From a phage, in sequence record PX880100.1: a stretch of 64,000 nt of DNA, one strand, 5' to 3'. The notes under the pieces were generated by a model that worked only from the letters and a program-made list of their open reading frames with translations, made no database searches and had not been told where the DNA came from. The position numbers and the translations under genes were made by a program. Positions 29,462-51,574 of the stretch are shown one piece after another; positions within the stretch are counted from its first letter, which is position 1, and every line of letters starts with the position of its first letter.

Positions 29462-30163
29462 ATGAAAGTAAAACCATTTGGTATGCTAGATATTGAATCT
29501 CTGGGAACTCCAGGAGATTGTGGTACTACTCATATCGCAATGCCTTCTTTCGCTTTTGTGGCTATGCATGGAATTGATAAAGACCCTGATCTAATATTTG
29601 TTACTTTGGATGTACAAGATCAGCTTAATTCTGGTGCCAAAGTTACAGCATCTACTCTAGCATTCTGGATGGATCAAGCTAAAAATAGCCCGTCTGCTAT
29701 CCACATTATGGAAGCTATGAAGGAACGTAATCCAAAACTGATTGCCTTCCAAAATGGTAAACATCATTGCACTAATAAACTCGGCTCTAACTATGCTGCC
29801 TACTCTATGGCTAAAAATATTATGGAGTTGGCTTTAGGCGAAAATGCTTTGTATTATGGCAACGGTCCAGAGTTTGATATGACTATCTACTCTGCAAACA
29901 CGTTCCATGCTGGAACCAATGAAGAGGTAGTTCCGTGGAAATTCTGGAATTTGGGTAATGTTCGATCTCTTCGTAACCTCTGGATGCAAGCTGGATACAG
30001 TTATAAAGCTCTAGAGACCGAAGGTATTAGCTGGGCAATAGCTAAAATGGAGAAGATGGACACCATTCGTTATGGGATCTATCCGGTTAAGCACGACCCA
30101 GCATTTGATGCCTTAGTTGAAAGCTATTGTGTTGCAGCTATGATCGAAAAAATGAAAATTTGA
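29462..30163 (+). CDS. putative DEDDh-type 3'-5' exonuclease
   Basis: 233 aa; N-terminal FGMLDIESLG (exo motif I-like D-x-E) and C-terminal YPVKHDPAFDALVE (H-x4-D motif III-like); tentative. Confidence 0.4.
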   Translation: MKVKPFGMLDIESLGTPGDCGTTHIAMPSFAFVAMHGIDKDPDLIFVTLDVQDQLNSGAKVTASTLAFWMDQAKNSPSAIHIMEAMKERNPKLIAFQNGKHHCTNKLGSNYAAYSMAKNIMELALGENALYYGNGPEFDMTIYSANTFHAGTNEEVVPWKFWNLGNVRSLRNLWMQAGYSYKALETEGISWAIAKMEKMDTIRYGIYPVKHDPAFDALVESYCVAAMIEKMKI

Positions 30164-30164
30164 T

Positions 30165-30193
30165 TTGCTTCCGGCCCCAAAATTCTGTATAAT
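30165..30193 (+). promoter_or_regulatory. PN25-type early promoter
   Basis: TTGCTT, 17-bp spacer, TATAAT, then ATATTCATAAATTTGAGAAAAC; approximate. Confidence 0.6.
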
Positions 30194-30233
30194 ATATTCA
30201 TAAATTTGAGAAAACAACAAAAGGAAAACAAAT

Positions 30234-30416
30234 ATGCCAGTATCTAAAAATGTTCGTAAAAATGGTAAGAAAGCTACTCGTAATCTGGGTATCCGTCGTA
30301 TGGCTGAACGTCAATCAGGTGTCCAGAAAATCTTTGATCTGCTAAATCGTGCTAATCCTAAAATTGATAACAGTAAAGATACTGTTCTGCGTACCTTACT
30401 GGCAATGGGTCTGTAA
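30234..30416 (+). CDS. hypothetical protein (60 aa)
   Basis: Track ORF directly downstream of promoter. Confidence 0.45.
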   Translation: MPVSKNVRKNGKKATRNLGIRRMAERQSGVQKIFDLLNRANPKIDNSKDTVLRTLLAMGL

Positions 30417-30468
30417 TAGACCAACTTTAAACAAATTCAAATCTTAAACTTCATATAAGGAAGAAACA

Positions 30469-31107
30469 ATGACCACTCGTATTTCTAAAACTCGTGCTCT
30501 GGCAACCATCAAATCTCTGGAAGCTAAAATCCGTAAAGCTACTGAACAACAGCTTCTGATCGCTGTTGGTGAAGGTAAGGATAAAAACCAGGTTGTAGTT
30601 GGCGCTGCAATCGAAGTAGCTGATCTGTCTACTCGTATTAAGACTGATTTCCAGTCTCTGCTGGATATGATGTCCCAGCGCGATCGTATCAAAGCTGCTC
30701 TGATTAAAAGCAATGCGGAAACAATCGTTGAGATTGGCTCTCGTAAGATGACTGTTGCGGAAGCAATTGAAGCTAAGCGTTCTATGGAACTTAAAGCTCA
30801 ACTGCTGGCTAACATGCGTAAGCAGTTCCATGCCGCTACAGTTAAGTTTAATGCGCAGAAAGCACAGTTTGATGCTAAATATGAGCGTTTGCAGGATAGC
30901 ATGGCTACCCGCGATAAGAAAACTTCCGAAGATGAAGTTAAAATGCAGCTCAACCTGCTGGAACTCAAGAATACTCCATTCTTGATTGATCCGCTGGAAC
31001 TGGAGAAGCTGATTAAGCAGCATGACGAGGAATACCAGGACTTTGCAACAAATGTTGACTTTGTTCTGTCCGAGTCTAACGCCTCTACCTTCATTGAAGT
31101 AGAGTAA
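30469..31107 (+). CDS. hypothetical coiled-coil protein (212 aa)
   Basis: Track ORF; Ala/Glu/Lys-rich helical sequence. Confidence 0.5.
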   Translation: MTTRISKTRALATIKSLEAKIRKATEQQLLIAVGEGKDKNQVVVGAAIEVADLSTRIKTDFQSLLDMMSQRDRIKAALIKSNAETIVEIGSRKMTVAEAIEAKRSMELKAQLLANMRKQFHAATVKFNAQKAQFDAKYERLQDSMATRDKKTSEDEVKMQLNLLELKNTPFLIDPLELEKLIKQHDEEYQDFATNVDFVLSESNASTFIEVE

Positions 31108-31490
31108 TAATTTAAAAGCTAGTAAATCGGTAGACGAAAGCCCAAGCATCTTACCTCGCAGCAGCGGTTGAAATACGAGGTTAAATAAGACCGCTGACCA
31201 TACTATAAAGTATAATCTATTGGAGATTATGTTTATTACACCAGCCTTTTAAGCTGACACGTAAGAACAAAGCGTCGTTGATATTACCGACACAACTTCA
31301 AAGATCAACATTTAAGTATGAAAGCTGAAAAGTTTAAAGAACTCAAACTTCTAAACTTCTAAAGCTAAAAGATGCAAAGTATTCGTTGATGATTCAAACC
31401 CTAGATCAAAGGTACATGGCTCATAAGATATGGCCTGTGGCGCCTCTAGGCTGTTTATCGGTTTACTAGTTTCACAATTTAAAAATGTAT

Positions 31491-31519
31491 TTGCTAATTT
31501 ATTAAGTTATCTGTATAAT
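31491..31519 (+). promoter_or_regulatory. early promoter
   Basis: TTGCTA, 17-bp spacer, TATAAT; approximate. Confidence 0.55.
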
Positions 31520-31549
31520 ATATTTTTAAATTGATGAAACGAGGCTATT

Positions 31550-31867
31550 ATGACTTTTCATATTTTGATTGATGATGTGCGTAATCTTCACGGAATGGAC
31601 ATTATCATTCGAACCCCAGAAGCCGCTGTAGAGTTTCTGAATAAAACTGATACCACCGGCCATTTCGTTTATATGGATAATGACTTGGCTGTAGATGGTA
31701 TGGAAGGTTATCAAATTCTTCGTTTACTCTTAGAATTTGGGCAGAGACCAAAGAAAGTGGTACTAGTAACCTCGAACCCAGTAGCTAAGCAAAATATGCG
31801 TAATGATTTGCTTGACTTAGGGTATAAAGAAAATCCCAATCGTGTTGAATATGATTGGCAGGAGTAA
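31550..31867 (+). CDS. hypothetical protein (105 aa)
   Basis: Track ORF downstream of promoter. Confidence 0.5.
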   Translation: MTFHILIDDVRNLHGMDIIIRTPEAAVEFLNKTDTTGHFVYMDNDLAVDGMEGYQILRLLLEFGQRPKKVVLVTSNPVAKQNMRNDLLDLGYKENPNRVEYDWQE

Positions 31868-31872
31868 AAAGA

Positions 31873-32322
31873 ATGAAGGCAGCTTTGCTTTTAGTAGCTG
31901 CCCTTACCTTCAGCTTTAGTAGTCAGGCATCGCACGATGCAAAAGAAATAGATTGCATTGCTAAAAATATCTATTTCGAAAGTCGTGGTGAGGGCATAAA
32001 GGGAATGACGGCGATTGCACATGTTACTAAAAACCGTGTAAACTCCGGTAAATTCCCAGATTCCTACTGTAAAGTAGTATATCAGTCTAACCAGTTCTCT
32101 TGGGTATCTAAGAGACCAAAAGTTGATAAAACTGATGAGGCTTGGCAAACCGCTAAGAATTTAGCTAGAGTGATATACTACGTTGATTTACCACAAGATC
32201 CTACATATGGAGCACTTTACTTCCATAGTGGTAAAGATAAACCTTACTGGACAAAGAAGTTTAAGAAAACAACTAAGATTAAGGGACATACGTTTTATAA
32301 ACCTGTTGTCACTAAAACTTAA
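31873..32322 (+). CDS. secreted SleB/CwlJ-like cell-wall hydrolase
   Basis: ATG at 31873 with GGAG RBS; signal peptide MKAALLLVAALTFSFSSQA; conserved segment IAKNIYFESRGEGIKGMTAIAHVTKNRVNSGKFPDSYCKVVYQSNQFSW. Confidence 0.6.
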   Translation: MKAALLLVAALTFSFSSQASHDAKEIDCIAKNIYFESRGEGIKGMTAIAHVTKNRVNSGKFPDSYCKVVYQSNQFSWVSKRPKVDKTDEAWQTAKNLARVIYYVDLPQDPTYGALYFHSGKDKPYWTKKFKKTTKIKGHTFYKPVVTKT

Positions 32323-32330
32323 AAATTTAC

Positions 32331-32359
32331 TTGCTTAAATACTTAAATTTCCGTATAAT
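32331..32359 (+). promoter_or_regulatory. early promoter
   Basis: TTGCTT, 17-bp spacer, TATAAT; approximate. Confidence 0.55.
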
Positions 32360-32390
32360 ACTTCCATAAATTAATGAGAGGAAGCGAAAT

Positions 32391-32561
32391 ATGAAATCAG
32401 TTGTAATTATTGGTGTTAACACTCGCGGTATTCGTACTACGAAAACTGTTAAAACTTCCAACGTTGCTGAGATCACTACGAACCCTAAAAAGTTTGATTT
32501 CGCCAAAGTCTCAGCAGTTATGACAGAACAATCTTTTAACCAAGCGTTAGGAATGAAATAA
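32391..32561 (+). CDS. hypothetical small protein (56 aa, below track cutoff)
   Basis: ATG at 32391 with GAGAGGAAG RBS after the promoter; stop overlaps ATG of next gene (TAATG). Confidence 0.5.
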   Translation: MKSVVIIGVNTRGIRTTKTVKTSNVAEITTNPKKFDFAKVSAVMTEQSFNQALGMK

Positions 32562-33004
32562 TGGAAGAGAATATTTTAGATGTTTTGCGTAGAGCTTTGC
32601 AGGATTCTAAGTTTAATGGTTCTGATAAAGAAGTCGCTAAAAGCTATCAGACCATAATCGGGGATCTTCAGCGTATTGATAAAGATTTCATCACTTCTGA
32701 ACAATTTGTGTCTTATCTCAAAGCTCAACTAAAAAGCATTAACCAGATGAAAGCTAAACTTCATGGTCAAGATCTTGATAGTTATAGCTTGCAGTCCGCT
32801 CAGTATGAATACATTCTAAATAAGTGGTTGCAGGAGTATCTGCCTCCTCAGTTATCTGATACTGAGATTCGTAAATACTTTGCAGAATTAGTTAAGCTAA
32901 ACCCTGGAATTACAAAAGGTATGCTGATGAAAGCGATTAAGGAAGAATTTCCTGGGCGTTATGATGGTGGTACTGCTGCTCAGATTGCTGGCGAATTTAA
33001 TTAA
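32561..33004 (+). CDS. hypothetical protein (147 aa)
   Basis: Track ORF; translationally coupled to the upstream small ORF. Confidence 0.5.
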   Translation: MEENILDVLRRALQDSKFNGSDKEVAKSYQTIIGDLQRIDKDFITSEQFVSYLKAQLKSINQMKAKLHGQDLDSYSLQSAQYEYILNKWLQEYLPPQLSDTEIRKYFAELVKLNPGITKGMLMKAIKEEFPGRYDGGTAAQIAGEFN

Positions 33005-33012
33005 AAATTTAT

Positions 33013-33041
33013 TTGCTAAATGCTTATAAATTCTGTATAAT
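33013..33041 (+). promoter_or_regulatory. PN25-type early promoter feeding an ORF-free RNA region
   Basis: TTGCTA, 17-bp spacer, TATAAT, ATATTCATAAATTAGAGAAC; no ORF for the next ~800 bp; approximate. Confidence 0.6.
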
Positions 33042-33264
33042 ATATTCATAAATTAGAGAACAGCGAGCCGATTACGCTGAGTGCAGAATCCCAACCGGAG
33101 CGCATTGAATAGAGTCGGTGGGTTAGTTGTAAAACTAGTACACAGGGGGCGGCAATCCCGGTTAGTGGCTAGAACGTGTAAAATGAGGCGTCTGAAACCT
33201 CTCCCCTAAACTCTTCTCTAATTTATAAATAGTGGGGTGTGGAAATCACTTATGTAGTAACACT

Positions 33265-33336
33265 GCCGTCCTAGTATAATTGGTATTATCAAGCCGTAAC
33301 TGGTGGAAGATGTAGGTTCGAATCCTACGGTCGGTA
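33265..33336 (+). ncRNA. tRNA-like element (T-arm and acceptor stem present, anticodon arm not foldable by eye)
   Basis: GTAGG-TTCGAAT-CCTAC T-arm and GCCGTCC/GGTCGGT acceptor pairing (one mismatch); no convincing anticodon stem; possible pseudo-tRNA. Confidence 0.3.
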
Positions 33337-33838
33337 AGAACTGGATAACTGATGCTTTTAACGTAAAAGCTTCCGAGGTTAGTTGCGCACTGCCTAAACC
33401 ACGCGGTAGTTGGTTCCAGACTAACCAACCAGTCTGCTGAATAGTTTTATTACGATTTAACTATGTCCAGGCTAAAGAAGAACTTTAGAAGGTATTCTAG
33501 GATAGTGAAGTTCTTTCTCCACATCGGAGTAGTTTTTCAAGCTATCCACAAAGTGGGAAATGCTGACATGAGAGATGTCACTAATGGTGCACAATAGCAC
33601 AGGTAATTCGCGATAATTCCTGTTGAGTAGCAGCAAAAGGCGGGAAGTCATGACCCCAAGCCTAACCGAGTCCTCAATATACCGCAGGACATAACCACTA
33701 AGTCACCCTGACTTAAACTGGAAAATAATAGACGTTACTGTATTTTGTCTTGAAATACTTAATGAGTGAGACTTATGACTCTCCCGGTATCGTCTGTATT
33801 TTTAAGAGTTTTTACGAGAGTTCTTAAAAATACTTAAA

Positions 33839-33913
33839 CGGGGTGTAGTCTAAGGGAGAGGCAGGAGTCTTCTAAATTCCTTTATGCAGGTTCGAATCCT
33901 GTCACCTCGGCCA
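33839..33913 (+). tRNA. tRNA-Arg (anticodon UCU)
   Basis: Acceptor CGGGGTG/CACCTCG, D-arm GTCT..AGGC, anticodon arm GGAGT-CTTCTAA-ATTCC, T-arm GCAGG-TTCGAAT-CCTGT, encoded CCA. Confidence 0.7.
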
Positions 33914-33947
33914 ATTTTATTAACTGTAACTAAAACAAAGGAAATAT

Positions 33948-34895
33948 ATGTTTAATACTAAAAATATGAAAGAACTGACTTCTGAGCAGAAAGTAATTCG
34001 TACTATTAAACGTTGGGGGATTGGTGCTGTAGTTGGTTTAGCAGGTTTAGTTCTAGCTCTTAACTCCTATACCGTTGTTCAAGACGGTACTGTTAAGACC
34101 CAGACTTTCTTGGGTAAAGTTGATCCTAATCCAGTATTACCTGGTTTCCATGTTGTAAATCCTTTTGCTTCTTTTGATACTTTTAGTACTAAAGATATTG
34201 CTCTAAAATTAGATAAACTTCAGGTTCCTAGTCAGGATAAGTTTAAATCCACTGTTGACCTGACTGTTATGTTGCAGTTTGATGGTTCTAAAGCACCGAT
34301 TAACCGTATTAATGCAGGTAATCAGGATCAAGCGTTAGACAAATATGTAACTGAAAAATTACTGTCTACTATTCGTGAGTTTGGTAAGTCTGTACCTAAA
34401 GCACAAGATTTATTTGATGCTAAAATTCAGGCTCAATTGCAAACTGCAATTCAACAGGAAGTTGAAGAGTATGCACGCCCATATGGTTACACAGTTAAGC
34501 AGGTGTTCCTTCAGGATATTACTTTGCCACCGGTAATCATGGAACAGGTACAGAATACCAAAGTTCGTGAAGAACAGGTTAATGCTGCTAAAGCTGAATT
34601 AGCTCGTGTTGAACAGGAAGCACAGCAAAAAGTTAAACAAGCAGAAGCAGATCGTGAAGCTCGCAACAACCAAGCTATTGCTAATGAACGTGACGCAGAT
34701 GCTAAACTGTACGCAGCTAAGAAAGAAGCTGAAGCTAACGCCGCATTGCAACGTACCATTACTCCTGAGATGATTCGCTGGAAGCAACTGGAAGTTGAAA
34801 TGATCCGTGCTCAGAAGTATCAAGGTGGTGTACCACAGACGGTAGTTGGTACTGGTTATGATGGCCAAATGATCATGGATATGCGTAATAAATAA
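33948..34895 (+). CDS. SPFH/band-7 (prohibitin/HflC-like) membrane protein
   Basis: 315 aa; N-terminal TM helix (WGIGAVVGLAGLVLALN), central SPFH-like region, C-terminal coiled coil rich in A/E/Q/K/R. Confidence 0.6.
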   Translation: MFNTKNMKELTSEQKVIRTIKRWGIGAVVGLAGLVLALNSYTVVQDGTVKTQTFLGKVDPNPVLPGFHVVNPFASFDTFSTKDIALKLDKLQVPSQDKFKSTVDLTVMLQFDGSKAPINRINAGNQDQALDKYVTEKLLSTIREFGKSVPKAQDLFDAKIQAQLQTAIQQEVEEYARPYGYTVKQVFLQDITLPPVIMEQVQNTKVREEQVNAAKAELARVEQEAQQKVKQAEADREARNNQAIANERDADAKLYAAKKEAEANAALQRTITPEMIRWKQLEVEMIRAQKYQGGVPQTVVGTGYDGQMIMDMRNK

Positions 34896-34919
34896 TACCC
34901 GCATGTAACATCTGAAGTA

Positions 34920-34954
34920 AGCCCTGCGTTTCCTGGAGAGCGCAGGGCTTTTCT
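34920..34954 (+). terminator. rho-independent terminator
   Basis: AGCCCTGCG...CGCAGGGCT hairpin followed by TTTCT; approximate. Confidence 0.6.
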
Positions 34955-34991
34955 ATATAATGTAATTATAAAACTAACTAGGAGATTAAAC

Positions 34992-35510
34992 ATGGGTGTT
35001 GATGAATTAACACAGCATCTTCTATCTAGAGGATTTGATGCAGATAAATATCATTGCTGGTTAAGTCCGGAAGGATGGCTAACAGTCCCGTTGTATGATT
35101 TCTCTGGGATGTTGAGGGGCTATCAAACTTATAATCCTTCTGCTCCAAAAGGTCATGGTAAGTATCCCTTTGAAGCTAAATATTTTACCTATTCTACTAC
35201 CCAGTGTGTATGGGGATTAGAAACTCTCAATGGAGATGAAAAAGTAGTATTGATCGCTGAATCTGTATTTAAGGCAGTTGCGTTACATAACGCTGGTTAT
35301 CCAGCCCTAGCAATGTTGGGTTCTTCTCCAGGAAAAGCGTTATTAAAGCAACTGAAATTATTACCTTTTAAATTGGTAGCTGTCGGGGATAACGATCCTG
35401 CGGGTGAAAAATTTGCTAGAAAATTAAACGGCTTTGTTTCTCCTGTAGATGTGGATGAGATGTCTACCGAAAACTTGAAAAATTTTCTTGCTATGAAGCT
35501 AAATTTCTAA
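34992..35510 (+). CDS. hypothetical protein (172 aa)
   Basis: Track ORF with GGAGA RBS. Confidence 0.5.
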   Translation: MGVDELTQHLLSRGFDADKYHCWLSPEGWLTVPLYDFSGMLRGYQTYNPSAPKGHGKYPFEAKYFTYSTTQCVWGLETLNGDEKVVLIAESVFKAVALHNAGYPALAMLGSSPGKALLKQLKLLPFKLVAVGDNDPAGEKFARKLNGFVSPVDVDEMSTENLKNFLAMKLNF

Positions 35511-43137: not shown

Positions 43138-43431
43138 ATGAAACGTTATCTTTCTGTTGTGTTCCAAACTGGTGGTCAGCGCTATACTTACGAATTTCCT
43201 GGCTCTTGGAAAGTCAAAGAAGGTGATCAAGTAGTTGTATTAACACCGCGTGACGGGTATAAGGTAGTAACGGTTAAGCAAGTATTTTCAAAAGACTATG
43301 AACCGTCTAAGTCTATTAACTATAAGATGATTCATGGTGTAGTTCGTCAAGTACCACGAGCGGAAGTCGAAATCAAAGTAGATAAAGATGATAAACTTAA
43401 ATATACCTCTTGCATAGACGAGTTGCTATAA
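43138..43431 (+). CDS. hypothetical protein (97 aa)
   Basis: Track ORF downstream of promoter. Confidence 0.5.
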   Translation: MKRYLSVVFQTGGQRYTYEFPGSWKVKEGDQVVVLTPRDGYKVVTVKQVFSKDYEPSKSINYKMIHGVVRQVPRAEVEIKVDKDDKLKYTSCIDELL

Positions 43432-43637
43432 TGAGGATTACTTTTACAGAAAAGATTATGAGTAATGGTGTTATGATCATTACCGCATGGGACAGTAATC
43501 AGTGGTGTAGTGTTTCAGGTATTAAGCCTGAAGAACAAACACTAGAAAATATCTCAAAGATTAAGCGAAGAATGGCAGAACGTGCACGACTTCCAGGTGC
43601 ACCTAGAAATGGCAAACGTTCTGCTGTGAAATGTTAA
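43431..43637 (+). CDS. hypothetical protein (68 aa)
   Basis: ATG at 43431 overlapping the upstream TAA (TAATG); track lists a longer frame from 43410. Confidence 0.45.
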   Translation: MRITFTEKIMSNGVMIITAWDSNQWCSVSGIKPEEQTLENISKIKRRMAERARLPGAPRNGKRSAVKC

Positions 43638-50507: not shown

Positions 50508-51164
50508 TTGGAAAAGTTCTTACAATTATTAACGGTACTGCTCCAAGAAGCGAAAGATCCAGCATCGCTTCTTAAACGTCTGCTAACTATCTTAGTTGCT
50601 GTCATTATTTTCTTATTTGTTAGTAATACTAGCGAGGTGATGTCATTCTTAAAGACTTTCTCCACGTCTGCGGTTCTACAGGATGTTCAAACTCAAAGGA
50701 TAGATAACTTTCCTAATGTAGCTAGAGAAAAGAGCATGGTACTCTTTTCTCAAACGGGTGCGGATGCTGTTTTTGTAGTCAAGTATAAACCCGATGCCAT
50801 TAATGATTATTCTAACATTATTGCATGGGAAAGCAATGCGCAATTAGATAGGGCTGACTTGGCCGATAAAGCAGTAAATAAAACGTCTGAGCTATACAGA
50901 CGTCACTTAGAGGGCTTTAACTACGCATCGGATTTAAGTGTAAGAGTAAATAAATATACGGGGTTAAATATACCTGCGTTTAAGAATGTTACTTTTAATT
51001 ACATATACACTTGTCCATATTTCAATCTAAACAATATCTATGCTGGATATATTGGTATTGCTTGGAAAGATAATCCTGTAGATGCAGCCGATTCTGAGAA
51101 ATTCAAGGAATATTTAACAAAGCTCTGTTCCCCACAACAGAGATCTTTAGGTAGATCAATATGA
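50508..51164 (+). CDS. holin-like membrane protein
   Basis: 218 aa; TTG start after GAGGAGG RBS; TM segment LLTILVAVIIFLFV; stop overlaps endolysin ATG (ATGA). Confidence 0.5.
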   Translation: MEKFLQLLTVLLQEAKDPASLLKRLLTILVAVIIFLFVSNTSEVMSFLKTFSTSAVLQDVQTQRIDNFPNVAREKSMVLFSQTGADAVFVVKYKPDAINDYSNIIAWESNAQLDRADLADKAVNKTSELYRRHLEGFNYASDLSVRVNKYTGLNIPAFKNVTFNYIYTCPYFNLNNIYAGYIGIAWKDNPVDAADSEKFKEYLTKLCSPQQRSLGRSI

Positions 51165-51574
51165 GTTTTAAATTTGGTAAAAACAGCGAAAAACAATTAG
51201 CTACCGTTAAGCCAGAGCTACAAAAAGTAGCTCGTAGAGCTTTAGAATTATCTCCATATGATTTCACGATCGTACAGGGTATTCGTACAGTAGCACAAAG
51301 TGCCCAGAATATTGCTAATGGTACCTCATTTTTAAAAGATCCTAGTAAAAGCAAGCATATTACTGGGGATGCGCTTGATTTTGCTCCATATATTAATGGC
51401 AAAATTGATTGGAATGACTTAGAAGCATTTTGGGCGGTTAAAAAGGCTTTTGAACAAGCGGGTAAAGAACTAGGTATTAAACTTCGTTTTGGTGCTGATT
51501 GGAATAACTCCGGAGACTATCACGATGAAATAAAACGTGGTACCTATGACGGCGGTCATGTCGAACTAGTTTAA
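51161..51574 (+). CDS. lys: endolysin, L-alanyl-D-glutamate peptidase (M15 family)
   Basis: 137 aa; zinc-ligand pattern SKHITGDALDF ... GDYHDEIKRGTYDGGHVE typical of M15/VanY-type peptidases. Confidence 0.8.
   Translation: MSFKFGKNSEKQLATVKPELQKVARRALELSPYDFTIVQGIRTVAQSAQNIANGTSFLKDPSKSKHITGDALDFAPYINGKIDWNDLEAFWAVKKAFEQAGKELGIKLRFGADWNNSGDYHDEIKRGTYDGGHVELV

What the first reader, a model, noticed from the sequence alone, without database searches (positions are those of the whole stretch)
31873..32322. Secreted SleB/CwlJ-like cell-wall hydrolase separate from the lysis cassette
A signal-peptide-bearing protein with the conserved SleB-type block (ESRGEG...GM.AIAHV..NRV....FP...C.VV.Q..QFSW) is encoded ~19 kb from the holin/endolysin pair and under its own early-promoter context. 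A second, secreted peptidoglycan hydrolase expressed early could act on the host wall during infection or on neighbouring cells rather than in final lysis.
Basis: partly seen in the sequence, partly recalled or inferred. Interest (0 to 1): 0.45.

Follow-up and report, generated by a model that had tools for sequence, protein, structure and literature searches.

The report
Exported SleB-type wall hydrolase of T5-like phage
This is the well-conserved, already annotated T5.083 gene of T5-like phages: a small cell-wall-cutting enzyme with an export signal, encoded far from the phage's main lysis genes; what it does during infection has never been tested.

Summary
Window 31873-32322 (+) encodes a 149-aa protein. 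It matches Pfam Hydrolase_2 (SleB/CwlJ catalytic domain) over the full model (E 3.4e-25). It models confidently (pLDDT 90.5) onto the SleB catalytic domain only, and keeps the SleB catalytic Glu (E36). Its N-terminus is a classic Sec signal peptide (MK / AALLLVAALTFSF / SSQA|S). That architecture persists in orthologues whose leader sequence has diverged.

The window is a Tequintavirus. The gene is the orthologue of T5 gene T5.083 (144/149 identical). It occurs in about as many T5-like records (521) as the canonical M15 endolysin (527), and is under purifying selection (dN/dS ~0.12-0.14). The T-type holin and M15 endolysin lie 18-19 kb away.

The "own promoter" claim is only partly right. The gene is second in a two-gene unit behind a cREC-domain gene, and the canonical lysis genes are also in T5's early cluster.

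The second, SleB-type "endolysin" of T5-like phages and signal peptides on relatives are already published. A T5 knock-down screen scored both T5.083 and lys "Not Fit", but the holin "Fit".

Most likely it is an accessory, Sec-exported periplasmic lytic transglycosylase, partly redundant with the main endolysin. Function is untested, and the gene is already known.

The parts
31471..31545 (+). Sigma-70 early-type promoter region serving the two-gene unit (-35 TTGCTA 31491-31496, 17-nt spacer, -10 TATAAT 31514-31519)
   Evidence: Consensus scan scored 10/12. The region is nearly identical to the 75-nt promoter annotated upstream of T5.084 in NC_005859. Activity and timing are not measured here.
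31550..31867 (+). Upstream co-transcribed gene, orthologue of T5.084: 105-aa cREC_REC (cyclic-phosphate processing receiver) domain protein
   Evidence: Pfam PF20274, E 3.8e-15. It is 101/105 aa identical to T5.084. Its stop codon lies 5 nt before the hydrolase ATG. It is not functionally linked to the hydrolase in any obvious way. An HNH gene separates the two in phage S113, and the cREC gene is absent upstream in Sugarlandvirus.
31860..31864 (+). Shine-Dalgarno AGGAG, 8 nt upstream of the ATG
   Evidence: Read directly from the sequence.
31873..32322 (+). Hydrolase_2 (SleB/CwlJ-fold) cell-wall hydrolase CDS, 149 aa, orthologue of T5.083
   Evidence: Pfam PF07486, E 3.4e-25. 144/149 aa identical to T5.083. 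AlphaFold model pLDDT 90.5 matching only 4f55/4fet. dN/dS 0.12-0.14.
31873..31929 (+). Predicted Sec signal peptide, residues 1-19 (MKAALLLVAALTFSFSSQA), with cleavage predicted between A19 and S20
   Evidence: Hydropathy and the (-3,-1) rule. The leader architecture is kept while its sequence diverges in S113 (..LPAYA|THD) and Sugarlandvirus (..FHAQA|KID). 70 of 74 full-length homologues have a hydrophobic core plus a (-3,-1) site. Cleavage is not shown experimentally.
31930..32319 (+). Predicted mature periplasmic catalytic domain, residues 20-149, about 15 kDa, pI about 9.7. The last 30 residues are Lys-rich (10 Lys, 1 Asp).
   Evidence: The C-terminal charge is counted from the sequence.
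31978..31980 (+). Codon of Glu36, the predicted catalytic general acid (ESRGE motif)
   Evidence: E36 is invariant in the 24-sequence alignment. It aligns with the first Glu of GESRGE in SleB 4f55/4fet. I identify that residue as the published catalytic Glu from the chain numbering and from memory; the source papers could not be opened. PMC12331253 and PMC11148199 state that the SleB catalytic Glu is essential.
31954..31956 (+). Codon of Cys28, one half of a predicted periplasmic disulfide with Cys66
   Evidence: C28 and C66 are the only Cys residues and both are invariant in alignment A1. 71 of 74 homologues have exactly two Cys in the mature part. The disulfide is inferred, not shown.
32068..32070 (+). 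Codon of Cys66, the partner of Cys28
32311..32385 (+). Next early promoter (equivalent of T5 P-D/E 33; -35 TTGCTT 32331-32336, -10 TATAAT 32354-32359). It overlaps the stop codon and marks the end of the two-gene unit. No terminator was found between the two.
   Evidence: Alignment with the T5-annotated promoter. The terminator scan found none on the + strand in this stretch.
50508..51164 (+). Context only: canonical T-type holin (orthologue of T5 C1/T5.041)
   Evidence: PF11031, E 2.8e-112.
51161..51574 (+). Context only: canonical cytoplasmic endolysin, an M15 L-alanoyl-D-glutamate peptidase (orthologue of T5 lys/T5.040)
   Evidence: PF13539, 24.4 bits, just under the 25-bit cut-off. tblastn hits are annotated L-alanyl-D-glutamate peptidase next to the holin. 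T5 annotation.

Best explanation
The gene is the orthologue of phage T5 gene T5.083.

Shown here:
- It encodes a single-domain protein of the Hydrolase_2 (SleB/CwlJ) fold with the catalytic Glu conserved.
- An N-terminal Sec-type leader precedes the domain.
- It is a near-core gene of T5-like phages and is under purifying selection.
- It is the second cistron of a two-gene unit flanked by T5 early-type sigma-70 promoters.
- It is unlinked to the holin/M15-endolysin pair.

Inferred:
- After second-step DNA transfer, host RNA polymerase transcribes the unit.
- The preprotein is exported by SecYEG and cut by signal peptidase I after Ala19.
- It folds in the periplasm with a Cys28-Cys66 disulfide.
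- It cleaves the MurNAc-GlcNAc glycan bond of ordinary murein as a lytic transglycosylase, using Glu36.

Most likely role: an accessory, holin-independent murein-weakening enzyme. It attacks the glycan strands while the holin-released Lys peptidase attacks the peptide stems. This would make lysis faster or more robust, and the two enzymes would be partly redundant, so neither is individually required in the laboratory.
For: Identity and fold.

Catalytic Glu and other invariant residues.

Export signal:
- Leader anatomy.
- The architecture is kept despite sequence divergence in orthologues.
- 70/74 homologues have a hydrophobic core plus a (-3,-1) site, and 71/74 have exactly two Cys in the mature part.
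- A sig_peptide is annotated on the PBES 02 homologue.
- A signal peptide is reported on the Certrevirus homologue CB7_83, which was toxic when expressed in E. coli (data not shown there; PMC7344957).

SleB-fold enzymes can attack E. coli murein from the periplasm: the T6SS effector T6EC3 rounds and bursts E. coli, and the E108Q mutant is non-toxic (PMC11148199).

Lysis role of the family:
- In Chaseviridae phage Mangalitsa the homologue directly follows the holin/antiholin gene.
- Hydrolase_2 is a typical catalytic domain of lysins from Gram-negative phages (PMC8223927).

Conservation and selection:
- 521 phage records carry a homologue at >=60% identity, against 527 for the M15 endolysin.
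- dN/dS is 0.12-0.14.

Redundancy: in the CRISPRi-ART screen of T5 the holin is 'Fit', while lys and T5.083 are each 'Not Fit' (PMC11879866 supplement).

Operon structure.
Against: - No enzymatic, localisation or expression data exist for this protein or any T5-like orthologue that I could find.
- An active transglycosylase exported from early times should endanger the cell during T5's long latent period. No restraint (inhibitor, low expression, PMF dependence) is identified.
- The 'Not Fit' calls are weak evidence. The authors say the T5 screen had reduced precision and missed many expected essential genes, and enzymes tolerate knock-down.
- Spore SleB is described as cleaving a specialised form of peptidoglycan, the spore cortex. 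Activity of this clade on vegetative murein is therefore inferred from the T6SS effector and from toxicity reports only.
- In most large phages the homologue sits among nucleotide-metabolism or early genes, not lysis genes. This could point to a non-lysis role.
Confidence: 0.55

Rival explanations
1. Non-lytic periplasmic remodelling. The exported enzyme acts from early infection on the host sacculus for a purpose other than release. Possible purposes are loosening murein so the cell can enlarge, perturbing division or host envelope machines, changing the envelope so that other phages cannot inject, or generating anhydromuropeptides. It would contribute little to final lysis.
For: - Placement in the early cluster among tRNA and nucleotide-metabolism genes in T5-like phages and in unrelated large phages.
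- Export is independent of the holin.
- The gene is near-core and under purifying selection although dispensable in the laboratory screen.
- In Vequintavirus it sits next to rIIA/rIIB.
Against: - T5's bona fide lysis genes are also in the early cluster, so position says little about timing.
- The family is located as an endolysin in Chaseviridae.
- No phenotype or target process is known.
- No partner or regulator was found nearby. The downstream 56-aa DUF7616 protein shows no N-terminal hydrophobic leader by eye.
Confidence: 0.25
2. Action on neighbouring cells or matrix after release. The very basic enzyme (pI about 9.7, Lys-rich tail) is liberated at lysis and attacks nearby bacteria from outside. 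This would aid spread in dense populations or kill competitors.
For: - The mature protein is strongly cationic, with 10 Lys in the last 30 residues (and the sequence).
- Hydrolase_2 lysins of Gram-negative phages carry high C-terminal positive charge, a trait discussed in connection with outer-membrane interaction (PMC8223927).
Against: - The outer membrane normally blocks external lysins.
- A signal peptide is unnecessary for an enzyme meant to be released at lysis.
- No data support this role.
Confidence: 0.07
3. Virion-associated entry lysin. The protein is packaged and digests murein locally during DNA injection.
For: Many phages carry virion murein hydrolases. One metagenomic homologue lies near a PAAR/Phage_lysozyme2 protein.
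Against: - A cleavable Sec leader sends the protein to the periplasm, away from cytoplasmic virion assembly.
- The gene is in the early cluster, not the late structural cluster.
- From my own knowledge, the muralytic function of the T5 virion is attributed to the tape-measure protein pb2.
Confidence: 0.03
4. Inactive remnant or mis-annotated ORF with no enzymatic function.
For: Knock-down gives no fitness defect. RefSeq product names in this region are noisy.
Against: - dN/dS is 0.12-0.14.
- The catalytic Glu and the Cys pair are invariant.
- Presence in about 520 records matches that of the canonical endolysin.
- The model is a confident SleB fold.
Confidence: 0.03

Closest known systems
Phage T5 gene T5.083 (YP_006911.1) and its orthologues. 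They are annotated 'cell wall hydrolase SleB', 'spore cortex-lytic enzyme precursor' or 'endolysin' in Tequintavirus, Epseptimavirus and Sugarlandvirus genomes.
   Same: 144/149 aa identical to T5.083. Same length, same neighbours (T5.084 cREC gene upstream; T5.082/T5.081 downstream) and same flanking promoters. Already described as a second, holin-distant 'endolysin' in PMC11180984 and as ORF81 of AKFV33 in PMC3326045.
   Different: Nothing of substance: five conservative substitutions.
Bacillus spore cortex-lytic enzymes SleB and CwlJ (Pfam Hydrolase_2; structures 4F55, 4FET)
   Same: Same catalytic-domain fold (TM 0.62-0.79, 28-31% identity). The ESRGE motif with the catalytic Glu, the NRV motif and the C-terminal H-x-F are conserved.
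   Different: No N-terminal peptidoglycan-binding domain. Far below the SleB equivalog cut-off (50 against 236.5 bits). It carries a Cys pair that SleB lacks at those positions. The host has no spore cortex, so the substrate must be ordinary murein.
Signal-peptide-bearing SleB-like hydrolases of Vequintavirinae and relatives (Pectobacterium phage CB7 gp83, Cronobacter phages CR3 gp087 and PBES 02)
   Same: Same domain, N-terminal export signal, and a location away from a classical lysis cassette. CB7_83 was reported toxic on expression in E. coli (data not shown in that paper).
   Different: Only 34-46% identity. Those proteins have a longer N-terminal extension, and the partner of the first Cys sits elsewhere. 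CB7_83 is followed by a small two-TMD candidate holin, which is not the case here.
Sec-exported endolysins: cleavable-signal type (e.g. Oenococcus phage fOg44 Lys44) and SAR type (P1 Lyz, phage 21 R). These examples are from my own knowledge. The general class is described in PMC7143992 and PMC8223927.
   Same: Holin-independent export through Sec, and accumulation outside the cytoplasm before lysis is triggered.
   Different: Those are the phage's sole endolysin, usually next to a (pin)holin. Here the gene is an extra one, 18-19 kb from a large-hole T-type holin that already has a cytoplasmic endolysin. The leader here looks cleavable (13-residue core plus AxA-type site) rather than a releasable membrane anchor, but this is not tested.
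T6SS effector T6EC3, a structural homologue of SleB (PMC11148199)
   Same: A SleB-fold enzyme acting in the periplasm of Gram-negative cells. Toxicity depends on the Glu that superposes on the SleB catalytic Glu.
   Different: Delivered by T6SS into rival cells, paired with an immunity protein, and the domain sits at the C-terminus of a larger effector. No immunity-like gene is evident next to the phage gene.

Membership tests
Pfam Hydrolase_2 (PF07486; SleB/CwlJ catalytic domain) | Significant full-length match to the family HMM above the gathering score | tested here: met
   E 3.4e-25, 89 bits against a cut-off of 27, profile 1-100/100.
Pfam Hydrolase_2 (PF07486; SleB/CwlJ catalytic domain) | SleB catalytic-domain fold | tested here: met
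   AF2 model pLDDT 90.5. Foldseek against the PDB returns only 4f55/4fet as significant, with TM 0.62-0.79 and rmsd 2.4-2.9 A.
Pfam Hydrolase_2 (PF07486; SleB/CwlJ catalytic domain) | Conserved catalytic glutamate | tested here: met
   E36 aligns with the first Glu of GESRGE in 4f55/4fet and is invariant in 24 homologues. Identifying this Glu as the published catalytic residue rests on chain numbering and my recollection, because the source papers could not be opened.
Pfam Hydrolase_2 (PF07486; SleB/CwlJ catalytic domain) | Lytic transglycosylase activity (1,6-anhydro-MurNAc products) | not testable with these tools
   Needs purified protein, sacculi and LC-MS.
Spore cortex-lytic enzyme SleB proper (NCBIfam TIGR02869 equivalog) | Score at or above the equivalog cut-off | tested here: not met
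   50.4 bits against a cut-off of 236.5. Only the C-terminal catalytic part of the model (positions 79-201) is matched.
Spore cortex-lytic enzyme SleB proper (NCBIfam TIGR02869 equivalog) | N-terminal peptidoglycan-binding domain ahead of the catalytic domain | tested here: not met
   Pfam finds only Hydrolase_2 at residues 39-142. The mature protein starts about 8 residues before the conserved core.
Spore cortex-lytic enzyme SleB proper (NCBIfam TIGR02869 equivalog) | Acts on the specialised peptidoglycan of the spore cortex in a spore former | tested here: not met
   The genome is a Tequintavirus of E. coli and Salmonella, which make no spores. Substrate chemistry itself is not testable here.
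Canonical holin-dependent endolysin of a lysis cassette | Encoded next to the holin | tested here: not met
   The holin is at 50508-51164, 18.2 kb downstream. The cassette already has an M15 endolysin at 51161-51574.
Canonical holin-dependent endolysin of a lysis cassette | No export signal (accumulates in the cytoplasm until the holin fires) | tested here: not met
   An N-terminal Sec-type leader is present and conserved in architecture.
Canonical holin-dependent endolysin of a lysis cassette | Required for host lysis | tested here: inconclusive
   Literature only. T5.083 is 'Not Fit' in CRISPRi-ART, but so is the canonical lys, and the screen had low precision for T5.
Sec-exported (signal-peptide or SAR) endolysins | N-terminal Sec-targeting hydrophobic segment | tested here: met
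   MK / 13-residue core with KD 2.36 / SSQA. Present in 70 of 74 homologues and in homologues from four other phage groups.
Sec-exported (signal-peptide or SAR) endolysins | Fate of the leader: cleaved by signal peptidase I, or retained and released (SAR) | tested here: inconclusive
   The short core and a conserved small-x-small site (SQA|S, AYA|T, AQA|K, VVA|K) favour cleavage. No predictor or experiment was available.
Sec-exported (signal-peptide or SAR) endolysins | Serves as the phage's lysis enzyme, typically paired with a (pin)holin | tested here: not met
   No holin-like gene is adjacent in T5-like phages. The feature is met only by the distant Chaseviridae homologue.

The most novel reading that the evidence does not exclude
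Large virulent phages of Gram-negative bacteria share a Sec-exported SleB-fold transglycosylase that is not a lysis enzyme. The groups include T5-like phages, Vequintavirinae, Stephanstirmvirinae, Nankokuvirus and many uncultured phages. On this reading the enzyme is an early periplasmic effector. It would remodel the sacculus during infection, for example to block superinfection, to disable envelope-spanning host machines or defences, or to adapt lysis to stationary-phase or heavily cross-linked walls. It would be conditionally essential only outside laboratory conditions. A weaker variant is that it and the M15 peptidase form a deliberately redundant two-bond lysis system, which would explain why neither scores in knock-down screens.
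Probability: 0.2. Interest if true: 0.5.

Novelty: already known. Interest (0 to 1): 0.2.

Why it matters
The finding adds little new. The gene, its domain and its distance from the holin are already annotated and published.

The open point is functional. A near-core, selectively maintained, exported murein hydrolase exists in a model phage (T5) alongside a classical holin/endolysin/spanin set, and nobody has shown what it does. If it proved redundant with Lys, that would explain why the T5 endolysin scores as dispensable in knock-down screens. It would also matter for engineering lysis-defective T5-like phages. If it proved to be a non-lysis periplasmic effector, it would define a widespread early function in large lytic phages. 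As an enzyme, a small, basic SleB-fold lysin active on Gram-negative murein could be of modest interest for enzybiotic work.

Tried and rejected
Tests of alternative readings:
- Lipoprotein or Tat export: rejected. There is no lipobox Cys and no twin-Arg in the leader.
- True SleB equivalog: rejected. 50 bits against a cut-off of 236.5, and no PG-binding domain.
- Functional coupling with the upstream cREC gene: rejected as obligatory. An HNH gene is inserted between them in S113. The cREC gene is absent upstream in Sugarlandvirus and in distant phage homologues. cREC homologues also occur in KVP40-like Vibrio phages.
- A periplasmic inhibitor or immunity gene next door: none seen. The downstream DUF7616 protein (56 aa) shows no N-terminal hydrophobic leader by eye.
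- The opposite-strand ORF 31891-32148 (85 aa): treated as spurious because it lies inside a strongly supported, conserved CDS.

Searches that led nowhere:
- Literature searches for any experimental work on T5.083 or T5-like SleB proteins found only genome descriptions.
- The HIDEN-SEQ essentiality preprint does not cover T5-like phages.
- The primary SleB structure papers could not be opened.
- No supplementary proteomics text was held for phiR2-01.
- An Rfam scan of 30000-35000 found nothing relating to the gene.

The genome-contig scan found only distant cellular homologues at 30-43% identity (plus one 23-residue fragment match at 57%). No recent bacterial donor is evident.
Full report
**What the window is.** A 2.5-kb stretch around the finding is 99.5-99.6% identical to Salmonella phage MET_P1_100_107 and Escherichia phage OSYSP. 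OSYSP is a Tequintavirus (Demerecviridae, Markadamsvirinae). The window also carries 24 tRNA genes and the T5 set of early genes in T5 order: nrd, thy, frd, rnh, Sir2-like and others. So this is the early region of a T5-like virulent phage.

**Checking the observation.**
- The ORF runs from ATG 31873 to the TAA at 32320-32322 and encodes 149 aa. AGGAG lies 8 nt upstream of the ATG.
- It matches Pfam Hydrolase_2 (PF07486) over the whole model: E 3.4e-25, 89 bits against a 27-bit cut-off. It also matches PHROG 938, labelled 'endolysin', at E 1.2e-29.
- By sequence, the only solved relatives are the SleB catalytic domains 4F55 and 4FET (E about 4e-8 to 1.5e-7).
- An AlphaFold2 model built on 24 homologues has mean pLDDT 90.5. 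Its only significant PDB matches are those same two entries (E about 1e-5, TM 0.62-0.79, rmsd 2.4-2.9 A).
- E36 in FESRGEG aligns with the first Glu of GESRGE in SleB. It is invariant across homologues down to 31% identity, together with Y34, E40, G44, R55, Q74, W77, H139 and F141. The SleB catalytic Glu is reported as essential (PMC12331253 and PMC11148199). My assignment of that residue to this motif rests on chain numbering and memory, because the primary papers were not available.

**The export signal.** The N-terminus reads MK / AALLLVAALTFSF / SSQA|SH. That is a short positive n-region, a 13-residue hydrophobic core (Kyte-Doolittle mean 2.36) and a c-region with small residues at -3 and -1. 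There is no lipobox and no twin-arginine.

The comparative evidence is stronger than the single sequence:
- In Epseptimavirus S113 the leader is MLKVLLLLATTISSLPAYA|THD. In Sugarlandvirus it is MKAAILMISILTSFHAQA|KID. The sequence has diverged but the architecture is preserved.
- Of 74 full-length homologues from the protein search, 70 have a hydrophobic core followed by a (-3,-1) site.
- C28 and C66 are the only cysteines, and both are invariant. 71 of the 74 homologues have exactly two Cys in the predicted mature part. This fits an oxidised periplasmic protein.
- The homologue in Cronobacter phage PBES 02 carries an annotated sig_peptide. The Certrevirus CB7 paper reports a signal peptide on its homologue.
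- SignalP could not be run and cleavage is not shown. A SAR-type retained anchor is not excluded, though the short core and the conserved AxA-type site argue for cleavage.

**Genomic context.** The gene is the orthologue of T5.083, with 144/149 residues identical. The preceding gene (31550-31867) is the T5.084 orthologue. It is a 105-aa cREC_REC domain protein (PF20274, E 3.8e-15) and ends 5 nt before the hydrolase ATG.

The T5 record annotates a promoter upstream of T5.084 and another, P-D/E 33, overlapping the end of T5.083. Both 75-nt elements are almost unchanged in the window, at 31471-31545 and 32311-32385. The first is also picked up by the consensus scan as TTGCTA-17-TATAAT. No terminator-like site separates the units. 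The hydrolase gene is therefore the second cistron of a two-gene unit and does not have its own promoter.

The link to the cREC gene is not obligatory. An HNH endonuclease gene is inserted between the two in S113. The cREC gene is missing upstream of the Sugarlandvirus orthologue.

The canonical lysis genes are a T-type holin at 50508-51164 (PF11031, E 2.8e-112) and an M15 peptidase endolysin at 51161-51574, 18-19 kb away. In T5 these genes, and the spanin candidates T5.044/045, also belong to the early cluster (PMC8624392). An early position therefore does not distinguish the hydrolase from the lysis genes.

**Distribution and selection.**
- tblastn finds the protein at >=60% identity in 521 phage records. 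The T5-type M15 endolysin is found in 527. The gene is therefore practically a core gene of T5-like phages.
- dN/dS is 0.12-0.14 against T5, S113 and Sugarlandvirus orthologues.
- More distant homologues (30-46% identity) occur in Vequintavirus, next to rIIA/rIIB. They also occur in Justusliebigvirus, Certrevirus and Nankokuvirus (among DNA-metabolism genes), and in uncultured phage contigs among nucleotide-metabolism genes. All those examined have an N-terminal hydrophobic leader.
- In Chaseviridae phage Mangalitsa the homologue directly follows the holin/antiholin gene and is annotated as the endolysin. I did not scan that genome for other lysins.
- Cellular homologues found in bacterial genomes are only 30-43% identical over the full domain.

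**What is already known.**
- The gene has been called 'cell wall hydrolase SleB' since the AKFV33 genome paper, which listed it with the lysozyme and holin as early-region products (PMC3326045). The same name appears for phiLLS.
- Guzel et al. 2024 explicitly discuss that T5-like Salmonella phages have two 'endolysins': an M15 enzyme next to the holin and a SleB-domain enzyme far from it. They ask which one the phage mainly uses (PMC11180984). One of the phages in that paper is the best match to this window.
- Hydrolase_2 is listed as a characteristic catalytic domain of lysins from Gram-negative phages, with high C-terminal positive charge (PMC8223927). This protein shows that charge: pI about 9.7, with 10 Lys in the last 30 residues.
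- I found no biochemical or genetic study of any T5-like orthologue.

**Functional clues from the literature.**
- In the transcriptome-wide CRISPRi-ART screen of T5, T5.083 is 'Not Fit'. The holin C1 is 'Fit'. The canonical endolysin lys and the two spanin candidates are also 'Not Fit'.
- This pattern would be expected if the two murein hydrolases can substitute for each other. It is equally expected if knock-down of a catalytic protein is simply ineffective. The authors themselves warn of low precision for T5.
- A T6SS effector with the SleB fold rounds and bursts E. coli when sent to the periplasm, and this depends on its catalytic Glu (PMC11148199).
- The CB7 homologue was reported toxic on expression in E. 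coli, as data not shown.
- Together these make it plausible that the clade cuts ordinary Gram-negative murein, whereas spore SleB is described as cleaving a specialised form of peptidoglycan.

**Most likely mechanism.**
- Shown: the fold, the conserved catalytic Glu, the leader, the operon layout, the conservation and the purifying selection.
- Inferred: Sec export, cleavage after A19, a C28-C66 disulfide, and lytic-transglycosylase attack on glycan strands from the periplasm, independent of the holin.
- I rate an accessory lysis role as most likely (0.55). In this role the enzyme weakens the glycan strands and complements, or backs up, the holin-released L-Ala-D-Glu peptidase.
- Action on neighbouring cells (0.07), a virion entry lysin (0.03) and a dead gene (0.03) are unlikely, for the reasons given under the rivals.
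- The main unexplained point for any 'active from early on' model is how the cell survives an exported murein hydrolase through the latent period. I found no regulator.

**Verdict.** The 'own promoter' claim and the 'early versus final lysis' contrast do not hold as stated. The gene is an already known and already discussed feature of T5-like phages whose function has not been tested. Interest is low.

Noticed in passing
window 31550-31867 (+): The gene co-transcribed upstream of the hydrolase is a cREC_REC (PF20274, 'cyclic-phosphate processing receiver') domain protein, the orthologue of T5.084. It is conserved in about 400 T5-like records and, at 37-39% identity, in KVP40-like Vibrio phages. 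The CRISPRi-ART supplement text lists T5.084 among five unknown-function 'Fit' genes, but the table in supplementary file 16 calls it 'Not Fit'.
   Followed up: partly
window 33265-33336 (+): Rfam scores a tRNA here at 35.5 bits, above the gathering score, but ARAGORN did not call it. It lies in the ORF-poor stretch between the YqeY-like gene and tRNA-Arg. That stretch corresponds to the 719-nt stable 'RNAX' annotated in T5.
   Followed up: no
L011 2510-3423 (Escherichia phage Mangalitsa, Chaseviridae): A Hydrolase_2 homologue with an N-terminal hydrophobic leader sits immediately after a holin/antiholin gene and before nrdB. It is annotated as the endolysin there, in contrast to its 'extra' status in T5-like phages.
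   Followed up: partly
PMC11879866 supplementary file 16 (phage T5): In the T5 knock-down screen the holin scores 'Fit'. The canonical endolysin lys, both spanin candidates and T5.083 all score 'Not Fit'. This is either redundancy between the two murein hydrolases or insensitivity of knock-down for enzymes.
   Followed up: partly
L012 972-1496 (Salmonella phage S113): An HNH homing-endonuclease gene is inserted exactly between the cREC gene and the hydrolase gene in this Epseptimavirus. This shows the two-gene unit tolerates interruption.
   Followed up: no
window 32391-32561 and 32561-33004 (+): Downstream unit behind the P-D/E 33-like promoter: a 56-aa DUF7616 protein (E 4.7e-33) and a 147-aa protein with a sub-threshold YqeY/GatB-like C-terminal match (25.4 against 27 bits). 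RefSeq labels the latter 'tRNA amidotransferase'.
   Followed up: no
window 33948-34895 (+): A 315-aa SPFH/Band-7 domain protein (E 2.4e-17), the orthologue of T5.080. RefSeq annotates it 'lipoprotein', and the T5 record notes a single transmembrane domain. It is another phage-encoded envelope protein close to the hydrolase gene.
   Followed up: no
window 31108-31470: About 360 bp without a credible ORF lies between the T5.085 orthologue and the promoter of the cREC/hydrolase unit. A gap of the same size exists in T5 (43142-43504). No Rfam family matched.
   Followed up: no
window 30469-31107 (+) and RefSeq records L001/L002: Several RefSeq product names in this early region look like automated mislabels. 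Examples are 'tail fiber protein' for the T5.085 orthologue (no Pfam hit), and 'tail length tape measure protein', 'baseplate wedge subunit' and 'major head protein' for small early ORFs.
   Followed up: no
proteins P0046-P0067 (metagenomic, 159 aa); locus L007 6001-6480: A clade of uncultured-phage homologues has a Ser/Thr-rich, weakly hydrophobic leader (MLTFKQLASIAILSTTFITS...) and a roughly 20-residue Tyr/Lys-rich insert before the catalytic domain. This looks more SAR-like than the T5-type leader. The genes sit between dGTP-diphosphohydrolase-like and Metallophos/Thy1 genes.
   Followed up: no
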